DNA of 64,000 bases from Shigella phage vB_SboM_Phaginator. The position numbers were made by a program, and so were the translations under genes. Within the stretch, counting starts at the first letter, position 1. The number at the start of each line of letters is the position of its first letter. The DNA lies in the sequence record OL615012. One strand, given 5' to 3'. This document shows, in pieces, positions 29,594 through 40,065 of the stretch. The notes beneath the pieces are model-generated. The model was not told the DNA's origin and did no database searches. It saw nothing but the letters and a program-made list of their open reading frames with translations.

Positions 29594-30172
29594 TTAGGAA
29601 TTACGGGCTGCATTAGCAACGGCGTAAGCGTACTGGACATTAGCGTCTTTAAACGTACCTTTAGAGGTATCTATTTCTGCCTTAAAGCCGCCTTTAGCCA
29701 TAACATCGGCAAATTCTTTACGGAAAGCCATTGCATCAAGACCTTTCCATGATGATTTATGCTTGGCAAATTCAAGACCAGCGTAGTTGACAGCCTTAGC
29801 TAATTTATTATCAATAACCCATTTACCGGCTTTAGGCACAAACTTCGGGCCTTTTTGTTTAGAGAACAGTTTTAAATTCCAGCGACGAAGGTCACTGTCG
29901 GCTTTAACAAAAGCTGCGTCTAAGTTACTAGCAACAACATCTTCAATATGAGCAAATTTAAGTCCGTCAACTTCAATATTTAGATCGTTACGCCAGCGAA
30001 GTCCTTCCCAAGCGAAGGCTTTAAAGTCGGAAGCCTTTGTAGCTAAGTACCGTTCAATAGGAGCTGTTTTAGGGTCAAAGCCGTTTCCCGATCGGTAGGT
30101 CCACTCATCTTTATTAATGCCTTTGGCCTTTACTATAGAAGCTTCGGCAATAAATTCTTGATAGGTTTTCAT
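29594..30172 (-). CDS. ipIII: Internal head protein with capsid targeting sequence (IPIII-like)
   Basis: 192 aa; N-terminus MKTYQEFIAEA, the T4 internal-protein capsid targeting sequence with LxE-type protease site; early promoter upstream. Confidence 0.65.
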   Translation of the reverse strand: MKTYQEFIAEASIVKAKGINKDEWTYRSGNGFDPKTAPIERYLATKASDFKAFAWEGLRWRNDLNIEVDGLKFAHIEDVVASNLDAAFVKADSDLRRWNLKLFSKQKGPKFVPKAGKWVIDNKLAKAVNYAGLEFAKHKSSWKGLDAMAFRKEFADVMAKGGFKAEIDTSKGTFKDANVQYAYAVANAARNS

Positions 30173-30662: not shown

Positions 30663-31465
<803 letters not shown>

Positions 31466-33742: not shown

Positions 33743-34336
33743 TTATTTCAGAGAATTAATATATTCCTGAACATCGGCAGAGGTAGTTTCAACCCCAGAA
33801 ATATTGCCATTAAAGGTTTCAACTCGGGCAAGAGTATCTTCAATATCAACCTTAGTCAGTGCTGCAATTTCAACTACATCATCGGCAGTACTAATTCCAA
33901 GGGCATTTGCCGCACGAGTTTCACGAATATATTCCAATTTAACTGCAAGTTCTTGGCGAGCATCATCTAACTCAACTACTTTCTTGGCGATTTCAATTCG
34001 CATTTCAGCATAACCGTCAGCTTTAGTAGTCAACTGCTCAGCTGTTCGGCGATATAGTAAACCGAGTTTAGCATGCATTGTTACATCTTGACCTTCGGAA
34101 AGAAGTTTTCGAATTTCACGCTCTTTTGATTCGGCCTGTCGATTCTTTTCGATAACAAGTTCACGAATACGTTTTTCTTCATTAATAGATTTAATAGAAG
34201 CAGTTTTTAGATCTTTAATTTTATCAAGTAGTTTTGCTGCTGCAGCAGTATACTGTTCTTCAACAGATAGATTTTTAGCCATAGCAGAACCAAGTTTAGT
34301 GCGAATAAACTCAACAATTTTCTTCAGTGTGTTCAT
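33743..34336 (-). CDS. Hypothetical coiled-coil protein (weak PspA/IM30-like character)
   Basis: 197 aa, long helical heptad regions; resemblance to PspA family is by eye only. Confidence 0.5.
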
Positions 34337-34393
34337 AGTATTTCCTTAGATTGATACAATTAGATAATATCACGTTTTTAATAGATTGTAAAC

Positions 34394-34729
34394 TTATTCT
34401 TCGTCTATCTCATCGATAAAGACGTCAATGGCCTCGATAACGGCATCATTGATAGCCAATAAAGTAAAATCATCGTCAGTACCTTTATAAGATTCTGAAG
34501 CATTGATATATGCTTGATTGACGAGTTCCCAAGCCTTTTTAAAATAAGGAGTTTCATCATCAGGACAAATATCCCGCACACCTTCAAAGATACGATTGGC
34601 ATAATCTAACACCCATTGTACAGGCATGTTTTGAGAACGTTCGTTAAACTCTTTAAATTCCTTAGATTCAAAAAGCTCTTCAGGATAATAATTTCGATTA
34701 CAAAAAGCTTTACTAAAGTTACGTTTCAT
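34394..34729 (-). CDS. Hypothetical acidic protein
   Basis: ORF track 111 aa; early promoter upstream (34755-34783). Confidence 0.5.
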   Translation of the reverse strand: MKRNFSKAFCNRNYYPEELFESKEFKEFNERSQNMPVQWVLDYANRIFEGVRDICPDDETPYFKKAWELVNQAYINASESYKGTDDDFTLLAINDAVIEAIDVFIDEIDEE

Positions 34730-34754
34730 AATGTTCTCCTCAAGCTACAGGCTC

Positions 34755-34783
34755 ATAATATCTCAATCATGAGCCTGTGTAAA
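34755..34783 (-). promoter_or_regulatory. Early promoter overlapping a 9-bp inverted repeat
   Basis: Minus strand GTTTACA - 17 bp - TATTAT; spacer contains CAGGCTCAT...ATGAGCCTG hairpin. Confidence 0.55.
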
Positions 34784-34784
34784 C

Positions 34785-35060
34785 TTATTTCATATTATTG
34801 AAATATTCTTCTGCGATTTCGTCGTTATCATGGTAAACTTTAGAAGACAGTTTAACATAACCTTCAGCAGTGAACATGTTAATCACAACTTTTACAGTAT
34901 ACCACTGACCGTCTTCATTACCCATTACTGCGTAAGTTTCAAACATCGGATGGTCAGGACCGATAACTTTAATATCATTCACTGTACGACCGAAATCTTC
35001 TGAAACGCATTTCATAAAGAAGTTGAACAGTTCGCCGTAATTATCCATTTCATTCTCCAA
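34785..35060 (-). CDS. Hypothetical protein
   Basis: ORF track 91 aa; early promoter upstream (35092-35120). Confidence 0.5.
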   Translation of the reverse strand: MENEMDNYGELFNFFMKCVSEDFGRTVNDIKVIGPDHPMFETYAVMGNEDGQWYTVKVVINMFTAEGYVKLSSKVYHDNDEIAEEYFNNMK

Positions 35061-35091
35061 GTTGTTTTCTGTATCAGTAGTTGATAGTTGT

Positions 35092-35120
35092 ATAGTACCA
35101 TGGAAGAACAGGGATGTAAA
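35092..35120 (-). promoter_or_regulatory. Early promoter (PeSL-type consensus)
   Basis: Minus strand GTTTACA - 17 bp - TGgTACTAT - ACAACTATCAACT. Confidence 0.65.
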
Positions 35121-35251
35121 CAGTTTTGTGAAAAAATTTTTAAAAAGTTTTGGGGAATTCTAGGGCGGGAGGGGCAATTAAAAGATAGGATAATATATTA
35201 TAAAGGGTAGAAACTAAATGATGTCTAGAGAGGCCTGGAAAGGCCTAGATA

Positions 35252-35278
35252 CCAAAAAGCCCTATCATTTAGATAGGG
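35252..35278 (-). terminator. Rho-independent terminator after IP-like gene 35289..35855
   Basis: Minus strand CCCTATC-N5-GATAGGG hairpin followed by CUUUUUGG; second palindromic hairpin AGGCC...GGCCT at 35231-35246. Confidence 0.55.
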
Positions 35279-35288
35279 ATTTAAAATT

Positions 35289-35855
35289 TTATTTACCCAG
35301 TTTAGTTATTATAGCTTCGGCAGCAGCTTTTAGCTTAGATGCAGTGTTAATACGATTTTTAATTTCAGTATACGCATCGCCAAGAACATCAAGGCTATCT
35401 GAATAAACACTTACACTATTGCGTTCGCTATTTGAAATAGAACCTTTAGTTTTACGATCAAAATCGGTATACACGTCTTGAAGATCGCGTGCTGCCTTCT
35501 TTGCATCATCCAATGCATCAAGAGCTTTATTCAAAGCATTAACATATTTTTTAGTGTCAAACATATTCTTAGAAATTTTGACGGGTGCGCGTTCAGGAGT
35601 AGCTAAGGCAGATTTAGGAAGAACCTGTTTGCCAGATGCCAGTTTCTTAGAAATTTTAAAAAACGCTTTATTGAAATTATTTTCTTGACTCATCGTAAAA
35701 GAACTATTATCAATGTTATACATTTCAATAGCTTTAGCTTTCCACTTAAGAAAATCGCCACGGTCTTTTGGATCCAAGTGGAAGAATACTTTAGTAAGAT
35801 CTGCTTCAGATGGTAATTTTGCTGCTTCGGTTAAAAATTCGGCGTAGGTTTTCAT
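35289..35855 (-). CDS. Internal-protein-like protein with capsid targeting sequence
   Basis: 188 aa; N-terminus MKTYAEFLTEA; terminator hairpins downstream. Confidence 0.6.
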   Translation of the reverse strand: MKTYAEFLTEAAKLPSEADLTKVFFHLDPKDRGDFLKWKAKAIEMYNIDNSSFTMSQENNFNKAFFKISKKLASGKQVLPKSALATPERAPVKISKNMFDTKKYVNALNKALDALDDAKKAARDLQDVYTDFDRKTKGSISNSERNSVSVYSDSLDVLGDAYTEIKNRINTASKLKAAAEAIITKLGK

Positions 35856-35936
35856 TTAAAATCCTTGAAATAATTTATTGGTTATTAATTATTTATCACG
35901 TTGTTATATGTAACAGCATTCTCCGAGCGATTCAAA

Positions 35937-35966
35937 CTAAAAAGCCCCAACCTTTCTGTCGGGGCT
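35937..35966 (-). terminator. Rho-independent terminator (repeat copy A)
   Basis: Minus strand AGCCCCGAC-AGAAAGG-UUGGGGCU followed by UUUUUAG. Confidence 0.65.
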
Positions 35967-35971
35967 AAAAT
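35937..35971 (-). repeat. 31-bp direct repeat copy A (terminator-containing)
   Basis: ctaaaaagccccaacctttcTgtcggggctaa; matches copy B except one base. Confidence 0.8.
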
Positions 35972-35972
35972 G

Positions 35973-36446
35973 TTATTTAATTTGCTTAGCAGACCAAATG
36001 CGGTCTTTGATAATTTTTTGGATGTCTTCAACATATTCAAGAGAGTGAACATGTGGGTTATCTTTGAAACTATAAGCACGAGCTAGCTTTTGGCCTTCGG
36101 TTTTGATTACTAAAAGCTCTTTAAGGATAGCTTCATATTTGGAGATAATTCCTTTAACAATATTTTTCTCTTGTGCGACTTTAGGATCTGCTTTAGGAGC
36201 AGGTTTACCTGAAGCCTTTGCAAAAGCAGCTCCAGTAGCAACTAAACTTTTCCAGGCCATACTAACTGCATTCCCTGTAAATCCTTCCGCTTTCATATCG
36301 CGAGCAAATTGGAATCGTGATTCATCGGAAGCATCTTTATAGGAATATTTACCCGCGGCAATGGCAGCTTTTGCAACAGCTTGAATTTCGGTGCTAGATG
36401 CTTCATTTAACACCGCTTCATTTAAAAATTGAGCATATGATTTCAT
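35973..36446 (-). CDS. Internal-protein-like protein with capsid targeting sequence
   Basis: 157 aa; N-terminus MKSYAQFLNEAVLNEA; TATAAATA late promoter upstream; flanked by a 31-bp direct repeat. Confidence 0.6.
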   Translation of the reverse strand: MKSYAQFLNEAVLNEASSTEIQAVAKAAIAAGKYSYKDASDESRFQFARDMKAEGFTGNAVSMAWKSLVATGAAFAKASGKPAPKADPKVAQEKNIVKGIISKYEAILKELLVIKTEGQKLARAYSFKDNPHVHSLEYVEDIQKIIKDRIWSAKQIK

Positions 36447-36482
36447 CTTATTTCCTGTTTTAATTCGTGGTTTTAATATACT

Positions 36483-36490
36483 TATTTATA
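36483..36490 (-). promoter_or_regulatory. Late promoter (TATAAATA) upstream of IP-like gene 35973..36446
   Basis: Minus-strand TATAAATA immediately after terminator hairpin; RBS AGGAAA and ATG follow. Confidence 0.6.
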
Positions 36491-36520
36491 CTAAAAAGCC
36501 CCAACCTTTCGGTCGGGGCT
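36491..36520 (-). terminator. Rho-independent terminator at end of tRNA/stable RNA cluster (repeat copy B)
   Basis: Minus strand AGCCCCGAC-CGAAAGG-UUGGGGCU followed by UUUUUAG, then TATAAATA. Confidence 0.65.
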
Positions 36521-36525
36521 AAGCC
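36491..36525 (-). repeat. 31-bp direct repeat copy B (terminator-containing)
   Basis: ctaaaaagccccaacctttcGgtcggggctaa; 554 bp from copy A, bracketing IP-like gene 35973..36446. Confidence 0.8.
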
Positions 36526-36526
36526 T

Positions 36527-36836
36527 TGCGGCAACCTTGTCGGGGTTCCACCTGCTAAGGCAAGTGTTTGTACGAAACGCCGGGATTCGAACCCGGTTAT
36601 TAAGCAGTTGACGCTACTCAATATTTTTAAAAGGCCATATCTCGACCATATCCGAACGTTCCGTCAAAAACGCTACTCGGTTTACGGCAAAGATATTTCC
36701 TCGAATCGATAATTCGATGCGCCGTTTCTGCTGTGATGTAAGGGGGCATTAACCGATCGTAAAGATTTGTTAATGCCAGTCCTTACCCAGGGAACATCAG
36801 TCCGACGACTTGCCGGTAGCGACCCGGCTTCTTGTC
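36527..36836 (-). ncRNA. Small stable RNA region (T4 rnaC/rnaD-like), incl. a tRNA-like acceptor/T-arm module at about 36572-36663 without an anticodon arm
   Basis: T-arm CCGGG-TTCGAAT-CCCGG and pairing acceptor strands but no canonical D/anticodon arms; lies between tRNA-Arg and a terminator, as the species 1/2 RNAs do in T4. Confidence 0.4.
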
Positions 36837-36912
36837 TGGTCGAGGCAGTAGGGATCGAACCTACGACCTAGGACTTAGAAGGTCCTTGCTCTTCCTTCTG
36901 AGCTATGCCTCG
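36837..36912 (-). tRNA. tRNA-Arg (anticodon TCT)
   Basis: Manual cloverleaf: acceptor CGAGGCA/TGCCTCG, anticodon loop CTTCTAA, T-arm GTAGG-TTCGATC-CCTAC, encoded CCA. Confidence 0.8.
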
Positions 36913-36916
36913 TATT

Positions 36917-36991
36917 TGGCGGACGTGATAGGATTCGAACCTATAACCAATCGCTTAACAGGCGATCGCTCTGCCATTGAGCTACACATCC
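36917..36991 (-). tRNA. tRNA-Asn (anticodon GTT)
   Basis: Manual cloverleaf: acceptor GGATGTG/CACGTCC (one G-U), anticodon stem ATCGC/GCGAT, loop CTGTTAA, T-arm ATAGG-TTCGAAT-CCTAT, encoded CCA. Confidence 0.7.
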
Positions 36992-36995
36992 AAAT

Positions 36996-37082
36996 TGGTG
37001 GGGAGTGATGGAGTCGAACCACCCGAGTCGCAATGACAATGGATTTACAGTCCACACCGCTACCTCTACGGGATAACTCCCC
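36996..37082 (-). tRNA. tRNA-Tyr (anticodon GTA), long variable arm
   Basis: Manual cloverleaf: acceptor GGGGAGT/ACTCCCC, anticodon loop CTGTAAA, variable stem-loop, T-arm GGTGG-TTCGACT-CCATC, encoded CCA. Confidence 0.7.
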
Positions 37083-37094
37083 TAATTCATAATT

Positions 37095-37169
37095 TGGTGG
37101 CCCTGGGTGGAATTGAACCACCATCTGGCGATTATGAGTCGCTTGCTTGAACCTTCCAGCTACAGGGCC
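37095..37169 (-). tRNA. tRNA with CAT anticodon (Ile2-type or elongator Met)
   Basis: Manual cloverleaf: acceptor GGCCCTG/CAGGGCC, anticodon loop CTCATAA, T-arm GGTGG-TTCAATT-CCACC, encoded CCA. Confidence 0.7.
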
Positions 37170-37170
37170 T

Positions 37171-37246
37171 TGGTGCTGATTGACGGAATCGAACCGCCGA
37201 CCTTCTCATTACAAGTGAGTTGCTCTACCTACTGAGCTAAATCAGC
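37171..37246 (-). tRNA. tRNA-Thr (anticodon TGT)
   Basis: Manual cloverleaf: acceptor GCTGATT/AATCAGC, D-arm GCTC...GAGC, anticodon loop CTTGTAA, T-arm GGCGG-TTCGATT-CCGTC, encoded CCA. Confidence 0.8.
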
Positions 37247-37251
37247 AAAAC

Positions 37252-37341
37252 TGGCGGAGGCGATAGGATTTGAACCTATGAGTCGCCGGAGCGACTGCCG
37301 GTTTTCAAGACCGGTGCATTAAACCACTCTGCCACGCCTCC
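37252..37341 (-). tRNA. tRNA-Ser (anticodon TGA), long variable arm
   Basis: Manual cloverleaf: acceptor GGAGGCG/CGCCTCC, anticodon stem CCGGT/ACCGG, loop CTTGAAA, T-arm ATAGG-TTCAAAT-CCTAT, encoded CCA. Confidence 0.8.
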
Positions 37342-37345
37342 AAAT

Positions 37346-37353
37346 ATTTATAT
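37346..37353 (-). promoter_or_regulatory. Late promoter (TATAAATA) abutting tRNA-Ser
   Basis: Minus-strand TATAAATA; predicted start falls at or next to the tRNA-Ser 5-prime end (37341); overlaps segB stop. Confidence 0.5.
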
Positions 37354-37998
37354 ATTGTTAATTTGATTTAGAATTCTTTTTGCTTGAGTATGACTTACGC
37401 CAATATGCTTAGCATATTTAGACAATTCGCCACGTTTAGAAAAATCATATAATTTAGAAATTTCTATTCTTCTTTTTCTTTCATCCGCAGAAACTTTTGC
37501 TTCGTTTGCTTTTGCTATTTTACGTTTAGCTTCTTGAGAATGAGTTTTACCAGCAAAGCCATTCTTCATTAATCCATTTGAAGACCATCCTTTTAATTTT
37601 CCGTTAGAATGTGCCTTTTTAACACCCAATGAAATTAATTCGCGTTGCTGATCTGTCATAGGATAATTATTTATATGATCCCATCCACCTTCACCTCCAA
37701 GTTTTAAATTATACACATCTGGTCTATTTAAAAACTCTTCTGTGACAATATTTTTCTCGGCTTCAAGCATAGATTCTTTATCGTCAAAATACTCTAATAT
37801 TTCTTTAGAAAAATTTTCTATACCATATTTATCTTGGGCTCTTTTTAATAATTTACCAGAACCCATATATCCATCATCTAAATTTTCGGTAGAATGCACA
37901 CCAATATAAATTTTATTATTAATTTTATTTGTTATTTTATAAAGATAAAAATGCATATCAGTCCCTAATAAAGAACTGAGCGTCTCACGACGAGTCAT
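37348..37998 (-). CDS. segB: GIY-YIG homing endonuclease (SegB-like) embedded in the tRNA cluster
   Basis: 216 aa; N-terminal FYLYKITNKINNKIYIGVHS (GIY-YIG-type motif); sits between two tRNA subclusters as segB does in T4. Confidence 0.8.
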   Translation of the reverse strand: MTRRETLSSLLGTDMHFYLYKITNKINNKIYIGVHSTENLDDGYMGSGKLLKRAQDKYGIENFSKEILEYFDDKESMLEAEKNIVTEEFLNRPDVYNLKLGGEGGWDHINNYPMTDQQRELISLGVKKAHSNGKLKGWSSNGLMKNGFAGKTHSQEAKRKIAKANEAKVSADERKRRIEISKLYDFSKRGELSKYAKHIGVSHTQAKRILNQINNI

Positions 37999-38002
37999 AA
38001 AT

Positions 38003-38076
<74 letters not shown>

Positions 38077-38081
38077 AAATT

Positions 38082-38168
38082 TGGTGCGAGAAGTGGGACT
38101 CGAACCCACAAGGAAATCATTCCGCAGCATTTTAAGTGCTGTGCCTTTACCAATTTGACCATTCTCGC
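38082..38168 (-). tRNA. tRNA-Leu (anticodon TAA), long variable arm
   Basis: Manual cloverleaf: acceptor GCGAGAA/TTCTCGC, anticodon stem CAGCA/TGCTG, loop CTTAAAA, T-arm GTGGG-TTCGAGT-CCCAC, encoded CCA. Confidence 0.8.
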
Positions 38169-38169
38169 G

Positions 38170-38242
38170 CTGGGAATAAAGGACTCGAACCTTTGCATCC
38201 TGGAATCAAAATCCAGTGCCTTACCAACTTGGCTAATTCCCA
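38170..38242 (-). tRNA. tRNA-Gln (anticodon TTG), CCA not encoded
   Basis: Manual cloverleaf: acceptor TGGGAAT/ATTCCCA, anticodon stem CTGGA/TCCAG, loop TTTTGAT, T-arm AAAGG-TTCGAGT-CCTTT; 1-nt spacer to tRNA-Leu (dimeric precursor as in T4 Gln-Leu). Confidence 0.8.
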
Positions 38243-38311
38243 ATTATTAACAAAGGCTCTCAAGCAAGAACCCTTGATGATAGAGGGTATTAATCAGTGC
38301 GGTATGAGTTA

Positions 38312-38338
38312 ATAATAACAAATAATTCTTAAAGCAAA
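38312..38338 (-). promoter_or_regulatory. Putative MotA-dependent middle promoter upstream of the tRNA cluster
   Basis: Minus strand TTTGCTTTA box - 12 nt - TATTAT, about 70 nt upstream of tRNA-Gln. Confidence 0.3.
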
Positions 38339-38844
38339 TTAAACATTTTAACAGTCGGCAAAACAATTTCTTTTTCTATATAAGAGTATTTAACACTCTC
38401 AACTACACGCAAAAAATCATAATCATAATACTCAGAAGCACTGCCTAAAATATTAATAAGTCCTTCAAGCACTTTATTACCATTCACAAAGAATAAGTCA
38501 AATACACGTTCTTCGTCTTCTTCGGATTTATTACCAAGGTCAACTTCTATGTCAAAGACCTTTTTAATGAATTCTGGATAAAGTTGTTCTGAGAACAGTC
38601 CTTCAACCAAGTATTCATAAATAAAAAGCGATTGCTCGCTGAACAAGCCATTACCACAATAACGTTCAGCTTTAGTACTAGAATGTCTGCTTTTAAACTT
38701 CTTTAAAAGATATTGGAATTGTAAGATTTCATGCTCTTCTACGCCAAACAGTGTTTTAGTTTTATAGTTGTCACCATCATTTTCCCAGGTAGTGACATCA
38801 ATTACGTAACCCTGTGGAATTGTAGTACCTAAACAAATATTCAT
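38329..38844 (-). CDS. Hypothetical protein
   Basis: ORF track 171 aa. Confidence 0.5.
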   Translation of the reverse strand: MNICLGTTIPQGYVIDVTTWENDGDNYKTKTLFGVEEHEILQFQYLLKKFKSRHSSTKAERYCGNGLFSEQSLFIYEYLVEGLFSEQLYPEFIKKVFDIEVDLGNKSEEDEERVFDLFFVNGNKVLEGLINILGSASEYYDYDFLRVVESVKYSYIEKEIVLPTVKMFNLL

Positions 38845-38847
38845 TTT

Positions 38848-39138
38848 TCACCACGCTGCATTAATATACGTTTTCTGAATACATTCAAGACCCAAAGGAT
38901 TCTTGAAAATATCATATTCAAGAGGACCTTTTTCTGTTTCAATAAAGAAATCAAAATTTACTGTATTAAATTTATGGTCTTCCTTCACTAATTTAACTTG
39001 AGAAGATGAACGGTCAACATAAACCTTTTCAACTTCAAAACATGTTAAAACACCATAATCATCAATCAAGGCTTTAGCCGCGTCTTGATCATATTTATAT
39101 CCATTTTCAATTGATGATACTTTAGCATAAAGAATCAT
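38848..39138 (-). CDS. Hypothetical protein
   Basis: ORF track 96 aa. Confidence 0.5.
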   Translation of the reverse strand: MILYAKVSSIENGYKYDQDAAKALIDDYGVLTCFEVEKVYVDRSSSQVKLVKEDHKFNTVNFDFFIETEKGPLEYDIFKNPLGLECIQKTYINAAW

Positions 39139-39141
39139 TAT

Positions 39142-39531
39142 TTACCCTTCATCAACAATAGTATGAGTGTGGGCATTTACAATTTGCCACCAATCAAAGC
39201 GATTAGAACCATACATTGGTTTGTTCTCATTTTCTTTGATAAGGTCACGGAGTTCATCTTCGGTAGCGGCTTTCGCGATTAAATCAGCATATCCACCGCG
39301 AGGATAATAATTATCACCTGCAAAAAGTAAAAAGTTTGCTTTAATATTATTAAACTTTTCAAGAGTAATAACTGTTCCACCAGGTTGAACAATCTCTACA
39401 TATTTATATCCTAATTTTTGAGCAGCATCTACTGCTTCAAGCAGGGTATCATGAGCCCATCCAACTTGGCAATCTGGCTTTTCAGATGGATTAGCCTGAT
39501 AATCCGCGTACACTTTATACATTCTATTCAC
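39142..39531 (-). CDS. Hypothetical protein
   Basis: ORF track 129 aa. Confidence 0.5.
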   Translation of the reverse strand: MNRMYKVYADYQANPSEKPDCQVGWAHDTLLEAVDAAQKLGYKYVEIVQPGGTVITLEKFNNIKANFLLFAGDNYYPRGGYADLIAKAATEDELRDLIKENENKPMYGSNRFDWWQIVNAHTHTIVDEG

Positions 39532-39766
39532 CTTTAGAAATTTTATCCATAACGATAGCGATTAAACCAATTAAAAATGCTACTACAAGCGAAAACACAT
39601 TTTCTGCTGTAGTTAATAATCCGCATATAAATCCAACAAACATTGAAAAACTAAAAGCGGAAGCAGAAATTGCAATAGCAACATTTCGAATTAATTCACA
39701 GCGTTTCATTTTATTCTCCAATTTCACATTTGCTTTGATAGAACTACTATAACATAGTTCTATCAA
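39524..39766 (-). CDS. Hypothetical small membrane protein
   Basis: 80 aa with hydrophobic core segments. Confidence 0.45.
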   Translation of the reverse strand: MIELCYSSSIKANVKLENKMKRCELIRNVAIAISASAFSFSMFVGFICGLLTTAENVFSLVVAFLIGLIAIVMDKISKGE

Positions 39767-39777
39767 GTTGTAAACTA

Positions 39778-40065
39778 TTATAGAAGATTTTTTGCAATAA
39801 TTTTAAGCTGAGCTACTGAAATATGCTTGGCTTTAAACAAAGCAGTTTCTTCAGCAGGAGAGATAACGATTGTAGCACCATCCTTTTTAGCAGACCACCC
39901 ATCACCTAGGTAAACAGTACCTTTGATTTCTTCGCCATCAACCAGACTAATCATTGGTTTACCTTCTCGTCCTTTATTTGCTTTAATAACTTCAGAAGTA
40001 AGAGTAGCTTCGGTAATAGTAGAAACCGGGGTAGTTGTAGAAGTAAATTCTTTGAAAGTTTTCAT
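39778..40065 (-). CDS. ipI: Internal head protein at the ipI locus (capsid-targeted; IPI-type proteins inhibit GmrSD-like restriction)
   Basis: 95 aa; N-terminus MKTFKEFTS... with ITE/TSE sites; located just upstream of 57B as ipI is in T4; early promoter at 40096-40124. Confidence 0.6.
   Translation of the reverse strand: MKTFKEFTSTTTPVSTITEATLTSEVIKANKGREGKPMISLVDGEEIKGTVYLGDGWSAKKDGATIVISPAEETALFKAKHISVAQLKIIAKNLL

What the first reader, a model, noticed from the sequence alone, without database searches (positions are those of the whole stretch)
35937..36525. Internal-protein cassette bracketed by a 31-bp direct repeat that is itself a terminator
The IP-like gene 35973-36446 is flanked by two near-identical 31-bp elements (one mismatch), each a terminator hairpin plus U-run on the minus strand; copy B is followed by a TATAAATA late promoter. 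Repeat-terminator-promoter units flanking single genes are the structure proposed for modular cassette exchange in T4-type hyperplastic regions, so this looks like a recently duplicated or exchangeable IP cassette with built-in late expression.
Basis: seen in the sequence. Interest (0 to 1): 0.5.

Follow-up and report, generated by a model that had tools for sequence, protein, structure and literature searches.

The report
Swappable internal-protein gene cassette, T4-like phage
In a T4-like phage, a small late gene for a probable injected "internal protein" is bracketed by two copies of the terminator that ends the neighbouring tRNA operon, and related phages show the gene is gained, lost or swapped exactly at those terminators; this is a clear new example of a known way T4-type phages shuffle accessory genes.

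Summary
Two 33-nt direct repeats with one mismatch (35936-35968 and 36490-36522) bracket the 157-aa gene at 35973-36446 on the minus strand. Each repeat is a strong hairpin plus U-run. Copy B runs straight into TATAAATA.

The window is a Tequatrovirus. Copy B is the terminator after the tRNA/rnaD/rnaC cluster; T4 and T2 carry only this copy and no gene here.

Related phages show four states: empty, IP157 only, IP188 only, or both. Every junction lies in the terminator U-run.

Other genera keep the same slot. Two Mosigviruses have the bracket around a 76%-identical homologue or a very divergent family member. Gaprivervirus-type genomes carry an unrelated membrane-protein gene, present or absent. 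A Jiaodavirus has the same terminator-TATAAATA-IP layout.

Both window genes carry the T4 capsid-targeting leader, but databases call the family (phrog_2280) function unknown.

The "exchangeable late cassette" reading is supported. "Recently duplicated" is not: the two genes are distant paralogues and the bracket predates the genus split.

This is a late-promoter analogue of the PeSL-like modules already reported at T-even IP loci. It is a new member of a known kind. Recombination itself is inferred, not observed.

The parts
36571..36835 (-). Homologues of T4 rnaD (about 36716-36835) and rnaC (36571-36709). These are the last genes of the tRNA cluster, whose transcript copy B terminates.
   Evidence: blastn to T4 rnaC gives 97.8% identity and to rnaD 86%. 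The tRNA genes lie at 36837-38242.
36490..36522 (-). Repeat copy B (T_B). It is the intrinsic terminator of the tRNA/rnaD/rnaC cluster: hairpin 36497-36520, then the U-run.
   Evidence: It is the only copy in T4 and T2 and sits at the same place after rnaC.
36483..36490 (-). T4-type late promoter TATAAATA. It starts two bases after T_B's U-run, and its first T lies inside the repeat.
   Evidence: The same terminator-promoter abutment is found in Tequatrovirus, Mosigvirus, Gaprivervirus-type and Jiaodavirus loci.
36451..36456 (-). Ribosome-binding site AGGAAA, 4 nt upstream of the ATG.
   Evidence: Read from the sequence.
35973..36446 (-). IP157: a 157-aa internal-protein-like gene. Leader MKSYAQFLNE|A (codons 36417-36446). 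Predicted to be all-helical.
   Evidence: ORF. Leader. phrog_2280 at E = 9e-61. No Pfam family. AF2 model pLDDT 74. 511 phage records carry it and none annotates it as an internal protein.
35936..35968 (-). Repeat copy A (T_A). It is the terminator of IP157 and a duplicate of T_B: hairpin 35943-35966, then the U-run.
35890..35897 (-). GATAAATA, a 7-of-8 match to the late-promoter consensus upstream of IP188. Relatives have AATAAATA at this position.
   Evidence: Read from the sequence. This is an inference, and a weaker one than for IP157.
35289..35855 (-). IP188: the second cassette gene, 188 aa, with leader MKTYAEFLTE|A. It is a distant paralogue of IP157.
   Evidence: phrog_2280 at E = 1.2e-53. 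Present in 164 phage records. Absent from T4, T2, PP01 and RB18.
35254..35278 (-). T_C, the terminator of IP188. Its stem is unrelated (CCCTATC/GATAGGG) and it shares only GGGCTTTTT with T_A and T_B.
   Evidence: Junction comparison.
35235..35253 (-). Constant flank GGTATCTAGGCCTTTCCAG (as read on the minus strand). It follows whichever terminator is last in every configuration.
35092..35120 (-). Early-type promoter-like site (TTTACA-17-TACTAT with TG) that restarts transcription into e.8 (34785-35048).
   Evidence: The same flank precedes e.8 in T4.

Best explanation
The region between rnaC and e.8 is a slot for self-contained late-gene cassettes.

Transcription logic (read on the minus strand):
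- Transcription of the tRNA/rnaD/rnaC cluster ends at T_B.
- Two bases after T_B's U-run, an 8-bp T4 late promoter (TATAAATA) restarts transcription late in infection.
- This gives a roughly 30-nt leader with a ribosome-binding site, the IP157 gene, and a stop at T_A, which is a copy of T_B.
- A second unit follows: a near-consensus late promoter, IP188, and an unrelated terminator T_C.
- An early-type promoter then restarts transcription into e.8.
- Each unit carries its own start and stop signals, so adding or removing one should not disturb its neighbours.

Recombination:
- The terminators are the recombination points.
- Exchange between T_B and T_A (33-39 nt of homology) deletes IP157 or, in reverse, inserts it.
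- Unequal exchange between co-infecting phages (for example IP157-only crossed with IP188-only) would give the "both" and "empty" states.
- Cassettes that end in unrelated terminators are gained or lost through the 9-13 nt GGGC-T-run microhomology.

Cargo:
- The cargo proteins carry the T4 capsid-targeting leader.
- They are therefore probably packed into the prohead core, cleaved by the prohead protease after the leader's Glu, and injected with the DNA.
- By analogy with Ip1-Ip3, they probably act as host-defence inhibitors.

What is shown and what is inferred:
- Shown: the repeat, the hairpins, the promoter motif and its conservation, the leader motif, the four natural configurations and their exact junctions.
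- Inferred: that recombination at the terminators produced those configurations, that the gene is transcribed late, that the protein is packaged, and its function.
For: - The repeat is far beyond chance and both copies are terminator-like.
- T4 and T2 have a single T_B followed directly by GGTATCTAG.
- The junctions, written with | for the boundary, are as follows:
  - empty: T|GGTATCTAG
  - IP157 only (PP01, RB18, G28): T|AGTATAAATA..IP157..T|GGTATCTAG
  - IP188 only (RB14, Pu-Krd-SF1, CHD94UKE2): T|AGTTTGAATC..IP188..T_C|GGTATCTAG
  - both (window, UFV13, G9062, JLBYU22): the two units in series
- All four states are common among several hundred Tequatrovirus-type records. About 278 are IP157-only and 100-127 have both. 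IP188 occurs in 164 records in total, and IP157 at 90% identity or more in 366. Empty sites make up about 17% of an evenly spread sample.
- Other genera use the same slot:
  - Mosigvirus AV118 has T - AATAAATA - IP154 (76% identical to IP157) - T.
  - Mosigvirus phage 55 has the same bracket with TATAAATA around a 208-aa phrog_2280 member that is only 29% identical over 69 aa.
  - Gaprivervirus CJ20 and IMG/VR locus L012 carry a phrog_2143 membrane-protein gene after T_B and a late-promoter motif. L015 is the matching empty site, with the junction in GGGCTTTTTTATA.
  - Jiaodavirus KEN39 has GGGGCTTTTTAGTATAAATA followed by a phrog_2280-like IP after its tRNAs.
- The two terminator copies within a genome differ at 0-4 of 22 positions. 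T_A copies of different genera differ at 5-6, and the GACC versus TTCC stem variant is shared by both copies within a genus.
- T4 readily deletes and amplifies DNA through 6-10 bp microhomologies in the laboratory (PMC9391042).
- Terminator-plus-promoter modules at indel borders are an accepted shuffling mechanism in T4-type phages (PMC2839356 and PMC4122927).
- The leader matches those of the IPIII, IPI and phrog_3499 internal proteins in the same window.
Against: - No recombination product, circle or deletion junction was observed. All evidence is comparative.
- From my own recollection of Singer et al. 1982, 33-39 nt is short for efficient T4 homologous recombination.
- The IP188 and phrog_2143 cassettes are bounded by unrelated terminators, so a long repeat is not needed for gain or loss.
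- TATAAATA is not statistically enriched in the window, and no transcript data were available.
- The internal-protein assignment rests on an 11-aa leader alone. There is no Pfam family, no structural match, and every database entry says hypothetical.
- The census counts are approximate. The search tool joins nearby pieces into one place, and the collection holds duplicate records.
- The within-genome versus between-genus comparison of the terminators rests on seven genomes.
Confidence: 0.75

Rival explanations
1. Moron-style accretion with no role for the repeat. Cassettes were inserted or deleted by illegitimate recombination. Selection kept only events that left every terminator and promoter intact, which makes the borders look as if they sit at the U-run. 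The T_A/T_B duplication is a passive scar of one old insertion.
For: The IP188 and phrog_2143 cassettes end in terminators unrelated to T_B and share only 9-13 nt with it. T4 deletes DNA through 6-10 bp microhomologies. In Mosigvirus the two copies differ in the loop, at 3-4 of 22 positions, so perfect identity is not maintained everywhere.
Against: A passive scar old enough to predate the Tequatrovirus/Mosigvirus split should have drifted. Instead the copies are 0-3 mismatches apart in five Tequatrovirus genomes, and the genus-specific stem variant is shared by both copies. The IP157-minus junction in the RB14-type genomes is exactly what exchange between T_B and T_A would leave.
Confidence: 0.17
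2. Enzyme-targeted, integron-like cassette capture. The GCCC/GGGC hairpin is recognised by a phage protein that cuts or pairs DNA there, which makes the terminator an active attachment site for late-gene cassettes.
For: All junctions in four genera lie next to a GGGC-T-run, whatever the rest of the stem is. Arbiol et al. cite Mosig 1998 for T4 deletions that end at GGGC/GCCC inverted repeats and for a proposed sequence-specific pathway. A GIY-YIG homing endonuclease gene lies 0.9 kb away.
Against: GGGC-T-run is simply the generic end of a G+C-rich intrinsic terminator and is the longest string these elements share. Homology alone therefore predicts the same junctions. No candidate recombinase is linked to the slot across genera. 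There is no target-site signature other than the repeat itself.
Confidence: 0.05
3. Recent tandem duplication: IP157 and its terminator are a fresh copy of the neighbouring gene unit.
For: Both genes match phrog_2280 over its full length. The ribosome-binding site, start codon and leader region are 74% identical over 42 nt. The sequence after T_A (AGTTTGAAT) resembles that after T_B (AGTATAAAT).
Against: By BLASTP the proteins share only the 11-aa leader. Each gene occurs alone in many genomes. IP157-type genes with the bracket exist in Mosigvirus at 76% identity. Any duplication is therefore ancient.
Confidence: 0.02
4. Chance or convergent similarity between two independent terminators.
For: None beyond the fact that intrinsic terminators share a general form.
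Against: The two copies match at 32 of 33 positions, including the loop and both flanks. No shuffle of the window produced a match.
Confidence: 0.01

Closest known systems
Polymorphic internal-protein loci of T-even phages (Repoila, Tetart, Bouet and Krisch 1994, EMBO J 13:4181). The paper is not held in the library. Its content is taken from citations in PMC2839356, PMC12373910 and PMC3012670, and from my own recollection.
   Same: Non-essential genes with the conserved N-terminal capsid-targeting leader vary in number and identity between close relatives. They are flanked by conserved regulatory sequence that Arbiol et al. later called PeSL-like.
   Different: The two loci described there are the T4 ipI locus and the ipII/ipIII locus. 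This slot, between rnaC and e.8, is empty in T4. According to Arbiol et al., the flanking elements there are based on T4 early promoters and weak AT-rich stem-loops. Here the element is a strong G+C-rich terminator, duplicated from the tRNA operon, and fused to a late promoter.
PeSL and PmSL cassettes (promoter-early or promoter-middle stem-loops; Arbiol et al. 2010, PMC2839356; Comeau et al. 2014, PMC4122927)
   Same: A stem-loop terminator sits directly upstream of a promoter, a ribosome-binding site and a start codon. It lies at the borders of insertions, deletions and replacements between close relatives, and keeps each gene transcriptionally isolated. The proposed mechanism is recombination between the repeated modules.
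   Different: PeSLs carry sigma-70-like early promoters, are conserved over about 100 bp, and occur many times in the hyperplastic regions. This unit has an 8-bp late promoter, 33-39 nt of repeat, and two copies in 64 kb. The word "late" does not occur in the 2014 paper. Mini-circles were shown for PeSLs but have not been looked for here.
Morons of lambdoid phages (as discussed in PMC2839356)
   Same: A single accessory gene with its own promoter and terminator is inserted between two genes without disturbing them.
   Different: Moron insertion is thought not to depend on conserved flanking sequence. Here the IP157 unit is bracketed by a duplicated resident terminator, and the same slot is reused across genera.
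T4 internal proteins Ip1, Ip2 and Ip3 (inhibitors of GmrSD-type type IV restriction enzymes; PMC12373910)
   Same: The N-terminal leader is M-K-[ST]-[YF]-x-[EQ]-F-[LI]-x-E. The proteins are small and non-essential, and their presence varies between relatives.
   Different: There is no detectable sequence or fold similarity beyond the leader. Packaging and function are untested.

Membership tests
PeSL cassette (Arbiol 2010; Comeau 2014) | A stable stem-loop that can terminate upstream transcription, placed between genes | tested here: met
   Hairpins of -16.8 and -20.3 kcal/mol followed by U-runs.
PeSL cassette (Arbiol 2010; Comeau 2014) | A sigma-70-like early promoter (-35 and -10 boxes) next to the stem-loop | tested here: not met
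   The scan finds no minus-strand sigma-70-like site between T_B and the ATG. TATAAATA is there instead.
PeSL cassette (Arbiol 2010; Comeau 2014) | Many dispersed copies, conserved over about 100 bp, in hyperplastic regions | tested here: not met
   Two copies in the 64-kb window at up to 3 mismatches. The repeat is 33-39 nt long.
PeSL cassette (Arbiol 2010; Comeau 2014) | Located at the borders of indels or replacements between closely related genomes | tested here: met
PeSL cassette (Arbiol 2010; Comeau 2014) | Formation of excised mini-circles, detectable by inverse PCR | not testable with these tools
   Needs phage lysates.
T4-type internal (injected) proteins | An N-terminal capsid-targeting leader ending in an L/I-x-E cleavage site | tested here: met
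   MKSYAQFLNE|A and MKTYAEFLTE|A. The same pattern occurs in only five ORFs of the window, and three of them belong to known internal-protein families.
T4-type internal (injected) proteins | Made late, packaged in the prohead core, cleaved by the prohead protease, and injected | not testable with these tools
   Only the late-promoter motif is available. Needs virion proteomics.
T4-type internal (injected) proteins | Homology to a characterised internal protein (IPI, IPII or IPIII) | tested here: not met
   The family is phrog_2280, function unknown, and differs from phrog_4363, phrog_5341 and phrog_3499. No Pfam family. No fold match.
Intrinsic (Rho-independent) terminator | A G+C-rich hairpin followed directly by a U-run, placed downstream of a gene | tested here: met
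   The annotators of phage G9062 independently marked both copies as terminators.
T4 late promoter | TATAAATA at about -10, with no -35 element needed | tested here: met
   An 8-of-8 match at 36483-36490. It is conserved next to the U-run in several genera. The word itself is not enriched in the window (14 found, 10 expected).
T4 late promoter | gp55/gp33/gp45-dependent initiation late in infection | not testable with these tools
   Needs transcript mapping.
Moron | Insertion that does not depend on conserved flanking sequence | tested here: inconclusive
   The IP157 unit has conserved duplicated flanks. The IP188 and phrog_2143 units share only 9-13 nt with T_B.

The most novel reading that the evidence does not exclude
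The tRNA-operon terminator could be an active, hairpin-directed capture site: a phage counterpart of an integron attachment site. A phage-encoded nuclease or recombination protein would recognise the GCCC/GGGC stem and integrate or excise promoter-bearing late-gene cassettes. That would explain why four genera reuse the same slot for three unrelated cargo families.
Probability: 0.06. Interest if true: 0.7.

Novelty: new member of a known kind. Interest (0 to 1): 0.35.

Why it matters
This locus gives an unusually clean natural record of how T4-type phages gain and lose single accessory genes. All four combinations of two cassettes occur, and their junctions are resolved to the base at terminator U-runs.

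It also shows that an 8-bp late promoter fused to a terminator is enough to make a portable, insulated late-gene unit.

Practically, it flags phrog_2280 as a probable family of injected proteins. The family is present in more than 500 sequenced T4-like phages, and none of the records seen here annotates it as an internal protein. Ip1-Ip3 were recently shown each to block a different GmrSD restriction enzyme. The presence/absence pattern of IP157 and IP188 therefore gives ready-made natural knock-outs for host-range and anti-defence tests.

The concept itself is not new.

Tried and rejected
- Rfam at a permissive E-value over 34000-40000 found only the tRNAs plus sub-threshold matches at tRNA positions. 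Nothing matched the hairpins or rnaC/rnaD.
- Pfam found no family for IP157. For IP188 it gave only weak helical-bundle matches, all below threshold.
- A search of 5.8 billion proteins returned 14 clusters, all unnamed or "hypothetical".
- The AlphaFold2 model of IP157 (pLDDT 74, pTM 0.47, five helices) had no Foldseek match in the PDB. The best hit had E = 0.67 and TM about 0.23, so no functional lead came from the fold.
- A scan of IMG/VR for the rnaC 3' anchor gave only 7 loci. That is too few for a census, though three of them were informative.
- I ran four junction-specific megablast queries as a census. The "empty" and "IP188-only" counts (229 and 134) are inflated. The tool joins pieces up to about 575 nt apart, so one-cassette or two-cassette genomes can score as full matches. 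I therefore used the IP157-only junction and both-cassette junction counts, the two tblastn totals, and the evenly spread sample.
- I considered whether RB69's 97%-identical IP188 shows transfer of the cassette between genera. I rejected this, because the whole rnaC-e.8 region of RB69 resembles the T4 type and not only the cassette.
- I looked for a MotA-box middle promoter upstream of IP188. ATGCTGTTA is not conserved in relatives, so I dropped the idea.
- Literature: Repoila 1994 is not held. The supplement of Comeau 2014 is not held. A search for IP names returned only unrelated papers. A search for the ORF names of these genes returned nothing. The Petrov 2010 review does not discuss internal proteins.
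Full report
**Where we are**

The window is a T4-like phage of the genus Tequatrovirus. The 1.7 kb around the finding matches 720 phage records, and the best is Escherichia phage vB_EcoM-UFV13 at 97.4%. All features discussed lie on the minus strand.

Read in the direction of transcription, the order is:
- a tRNA cluster at 38242-36837, interrupted by a GIY-YIG homing-endonuclease gene
- homologues of the T4 stable RNAs rnaD and rnaC, at about 36835-36571
- repeat copy B
- a 157-aa gene (IP157, 36446-35973)
- repeat copy A
- a 188-aa gene (IP188, 35855-35289)
- a third, different terminator
- gene e.8

**The observation**

The repeat is real. ACTAAAAAGCCCCAACCTTTC[T/G]GTCGGGGCTAA occurs at 35936-35968 and 36490-36522. 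That is 33 nt with one mismatch, in the hairpin loop, and it extends to 39 nt at 92% identity. No other copy exists in the 64 kb at up to three mismatches, and none of 100 shuffles produced a match.

Both copies fold on the minus strand into 9-10 bp G+C-rich hairpins followed by UUUUU. The energies are -16.8 and -20.3 kcal/mol. A consensus scan calls both as terminators, together with a third at 35260-35278 whose stem is unrelated.

TATAAATA lies at 36483-36490, starting two bases after copy B's U-run, and its first T falls inside the repeat. AGGAAA lies at 36451-36456 and the ATG at 36446. The word TATAAATA is not enriched in this AT-rich window (14 found, 10 expected). Its status as a promoter therefore rests on position and conservation.

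**What copy B is**

T4 itself has exactly one copy of this element, about 50 nt downstream of rnaC. It is followed directly by GGTATCTAAGCC... and then by the e.8 promoter region. T4 has no gene between rnaC and e.8, and T2 is the same.

Copy B is therefore the resident terminator of the tRNA/rnaD/rnaC cluster, and copy A is a duplicate of it. The annotators of phage G9062 independently marked both copies as terminators of equal energy.

I extracted the slot from eleven annotated relatives. Written in the transcribed orientation, with | marking the junction, four configurations appear:
- Empty (T4, T2): T|GGTATCTAG
- IP157 only (PP01, RB18; G28 with a frameshift): T|AGTATAAATA...IP157...T|GGTATCTAG
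- IP188 only (RB14, Pu-Krd-SF1, CHD94UKE2): T|AGTTTGAATC...IP188...T_C|GGTATCTAG
- Both (window, UFV13, G9062, JLBYU22): the two units in series

Every junction lies at the end of a terminator U-run. The RB14 type is exactly the window minus one repeat copy and IP157, a 554-bp difference.

The four states are all common, although the counts below are approximate:
- The IP157-only junction is found in about 278 records.
- The both-cassette junction or full locus is found in 100-127 records.
- IP188 occurs in 164 records in total.
- IP157 at 90% identity or more occurs in 366 records.
- In an evenly spread sample of about 40 Tequatrovirus-type records, 7 were empty, 21 IP157-only, 3 IP188-only and 9 had both.

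Two of my junction queries over-count, because the search tool joins nearby pieces into one place. I did not use those two numbers.

**Other genera**

The slot and its logic extend beyond Tequatrovirus.
- Mosigvirus AV118 has rnaC, then a hairpin (GCCCCTTCCGAAAGGTCGGGGC), AATAAATA, a 154-aa gene 76% identical to IP157, a second hairpin (GCCCCTTCCTTATGGTTGGGGC), GGTATCTAGGGC and an early promoter.
- Mosigvirus phage 55 has the same bracket and a perfect TATAAATA around a 208-aa gene. That gene belongs to the same PHROG but is only 29% identical to IP157 over 69 residues.
- Gaprivervirus CJ20 and IMG/VR locus L012 have T_B, a late-promoter motif, an unrelated 184-aa membrane-protein gene (phrog_2143) and a different terminator. 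IMG/VR locus L015 is the matching empty site, with the junction inside GGGCTTTTTTATA.
- A further IMG/VR locus, L017, carries IP154, a remnant of the phrog_2143 gene, and then another T-like hairpin.
- In Klebsiella Jiaodavirus KEN39 the tRNA region ends in a different hairpin. The same GGGGCTTTTTAGTATAAATA fusion follows, and then a 177-aa relative of IP157.

The content between and after the terminators therefore varies, while the terminator and late-promoter frame stays.

**Are the two copies kept alike?**

Within a genome, T_B and T_A differ at 0-4 of 22 hairpin positions. T_A copies from different genera differ at 5-6. The stem variant GACC (Tequatrovirus) versus TTCC (Mosigvirus) is shared by both copies within each genus.

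This fits repeated exchange or gene conversion between the copies, or repeated re-insertion through the resident terminator. The sample is small, only seven genomes.

**The cargo**

IP157 begins MKSYAQFLNE|A and IP188 begins MKTYAEFLTE|A. A pattern scan of all six frames finds five such ORFs in the window. The other three are the IPIII homologue, IPI (Pfam IPI_T4) and a phrog_3499 "internal head protein".

IP157 and IP188 share only this leader by BLASTP. Both match phrog_2280, annotated as function unknown, over its full length. An alignment shows a shared plan: the leader, a helical N-terminal part, a Pro/Lys-rich linker and a helical C-terminal hairpin. They are old paralogues and not a recent duplication.

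No function could be assigned:
- Pfam has no family for IP157.
- The 5.8-billion-protein search gives only unnamed or hypothetical relatives.
- All sampled records of the 511 that encode it say "hypothetical" or "phage protein".
- The AF2 model (pLDDT 74) has no PDB match.

By analogy with T4 Ip1-Ip3, which each inhibit a different GmrSD type IV restriction enzyme (PMC12373910), an injected anti-defence role is the best guess. It is only an inference.

**How it most likely works**

Each unit is transcriptionally self-contained. T_B stops the tRNA-cluster transcript and the 8-bp late promoter restarts transcription. From established knowledge, T4 late promoters need no -35 element. T_A stops the transcript again.

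IP188 follows with a 7-of-8 late-promoter match (35890-35897) and its own terminator. An early-type promoter (35120-35092) then restarts transcription for e.8. Adding or removing a unit should therefore leave its neighbours undisturbed.

The terminators supply the homology for gain, loss and shuffling. There are 33-39 nt between T_B and T_A, and 9-13 nt (GGGC plus the T-run) between unrelated terminators.

T4 is known to delete and amplify DNA through 6-10 bp microhomologies within a few rounds of laboratory evolution (PMC9391042). An unequal crossover between the second terminator of an IP157-only phage and the single terminator of an IP188-only phage would give the "both" and "empty" states in one step.

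No recombination product has been observed. This step is inferred from the junctions.

**Comparison with what is known**

The closest description is that of the polymorphic internal-protein loci of T-even phages (Repoila et al. 1994). That paper is not held in the library. [quoted passage not shown]

The general model is that of PeSL and PmSL cassettes: stem-loop plus promoter modules at indel borders that mediate modular shuffling, with mini-circles shown experimentally (PMC2839356 and PMC4122927).

The present unit works like these but fails two defining features of a PeSL. Its promoter is late and not sigma-70-like, and it is a two-copy 33-39 nt repeat and not a dispersed family conserved over about 100 bp.

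It also lies at a third site, between rnaC and e.8. That site is empty in T4 and is not one of the two T4 IP loci. The 2014 paper names early and middle versions of these modules, and the word "late" does not occur in it.

I found no paper in the held library that mentions these genes by their ORF names.

**Verdict**

"Recently duplicated" is not supported.

The finding is a clear, well-resolved new example of a known mechanism. Its useful by-product is a widespread, unannotated family of probable injected proteins.

Noticed in passing
window 37348-37998 (-): A 216-aa GIY-YIG/NUMOD3 homing-endonuclease gene sits between tRNA-Ser (37252-37341) and tRNA-Gly (38003-38076). Relatives such as G9062 and JLBYU22 have tRNA-Pro at this position, and the window has no tRNA-Pro. 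T4's segB lies at a different place in the cluster, next to tRNA-Arg.
   Followed up: partly
window 30663-30944 (-) and 29594-30172 (-): There are two further genes with the capsid-targeting leader, near the position expected for the lysozyme gene e. One is a 93-aa phrog_3499 "internal head protein" ([11 protein letters not shown]...). The other is the IPIII homologue. T4 has no gene between e and ipIII, so this second internal-protein locus also differs from T4.
   Followed up: partly
L025 (Logan contig ERR11570814_2163), 2394-2720: A natural or assembly-derived deletion fuses the middle of a trna.3-like gene to the last 30 codons of IP157, at a short CAAAGA-AAC-type similarity. It removes trna.2, all tRNA genes, rnaD, rnaC and T_B. 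T_A and the e.8 flank follow intact. The same contig has no ipI-locus gene between 57B and trna.4.
   Followed up: partly
L020 (Escherichia phage vB_Eco_F26), about 1990-2350: A tandem duplication of about 350 bp joins the first codons of e.8 to the 3' end of IP188, followed by a second copy of T_C and the e.8 promoter. It could be a real rearrangement or an assembly artefact.
   Followed up: no
L006 (phage G28) offset about 385 after the rnaC anchor; L019 (RB69) 1801-2363: The cargo genes are sometimes broken. IP157 of G28 is frameshifted in an A-run, giving a 97-aa product. IP188 of RB69 is split into ORF149c and ORF148c, although it is 97% identical at the protein level. This fits dispensable genes, or sequencing errors in homopolymers.
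   Followed up: partly
L001 3129-3479; also L007, L009, L019 1027-1371, L021 2845-3189: A 345-351-bp ORF lies between tRNA-Arg and rnaD in JLBYU22, RB18, T2, RB69 and AV118. It is absent from the window and from T4, so this is a second presence/absence site only 0.3 kb from the finding.
   Followed up: no
window 36532-36552 (-): The trailer between rnaC and T_B contains CCCCGACAAGGTTG. This resembles the T_B hairpin sequence CCCCGACCGAAAGGTTGGGG with the loop shortened, and may be a degenerate third copy of the motif.
   Followed up: no
L017 (IMG/VR UViG_2974735671), offsets 560-710 after the rnaC anchor: This is a three-part array. IP154 has a short terminator of its own. An internally deleted remnant of the phrog_2143 membrane-protein gene follows. 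Then comes another T-like hairpin (GGCCCTTCCGAAAGGTTGGGCC) before the e.8 promoter. The array suggests successive cassette insertions followed by decay.
   Followed up: partly
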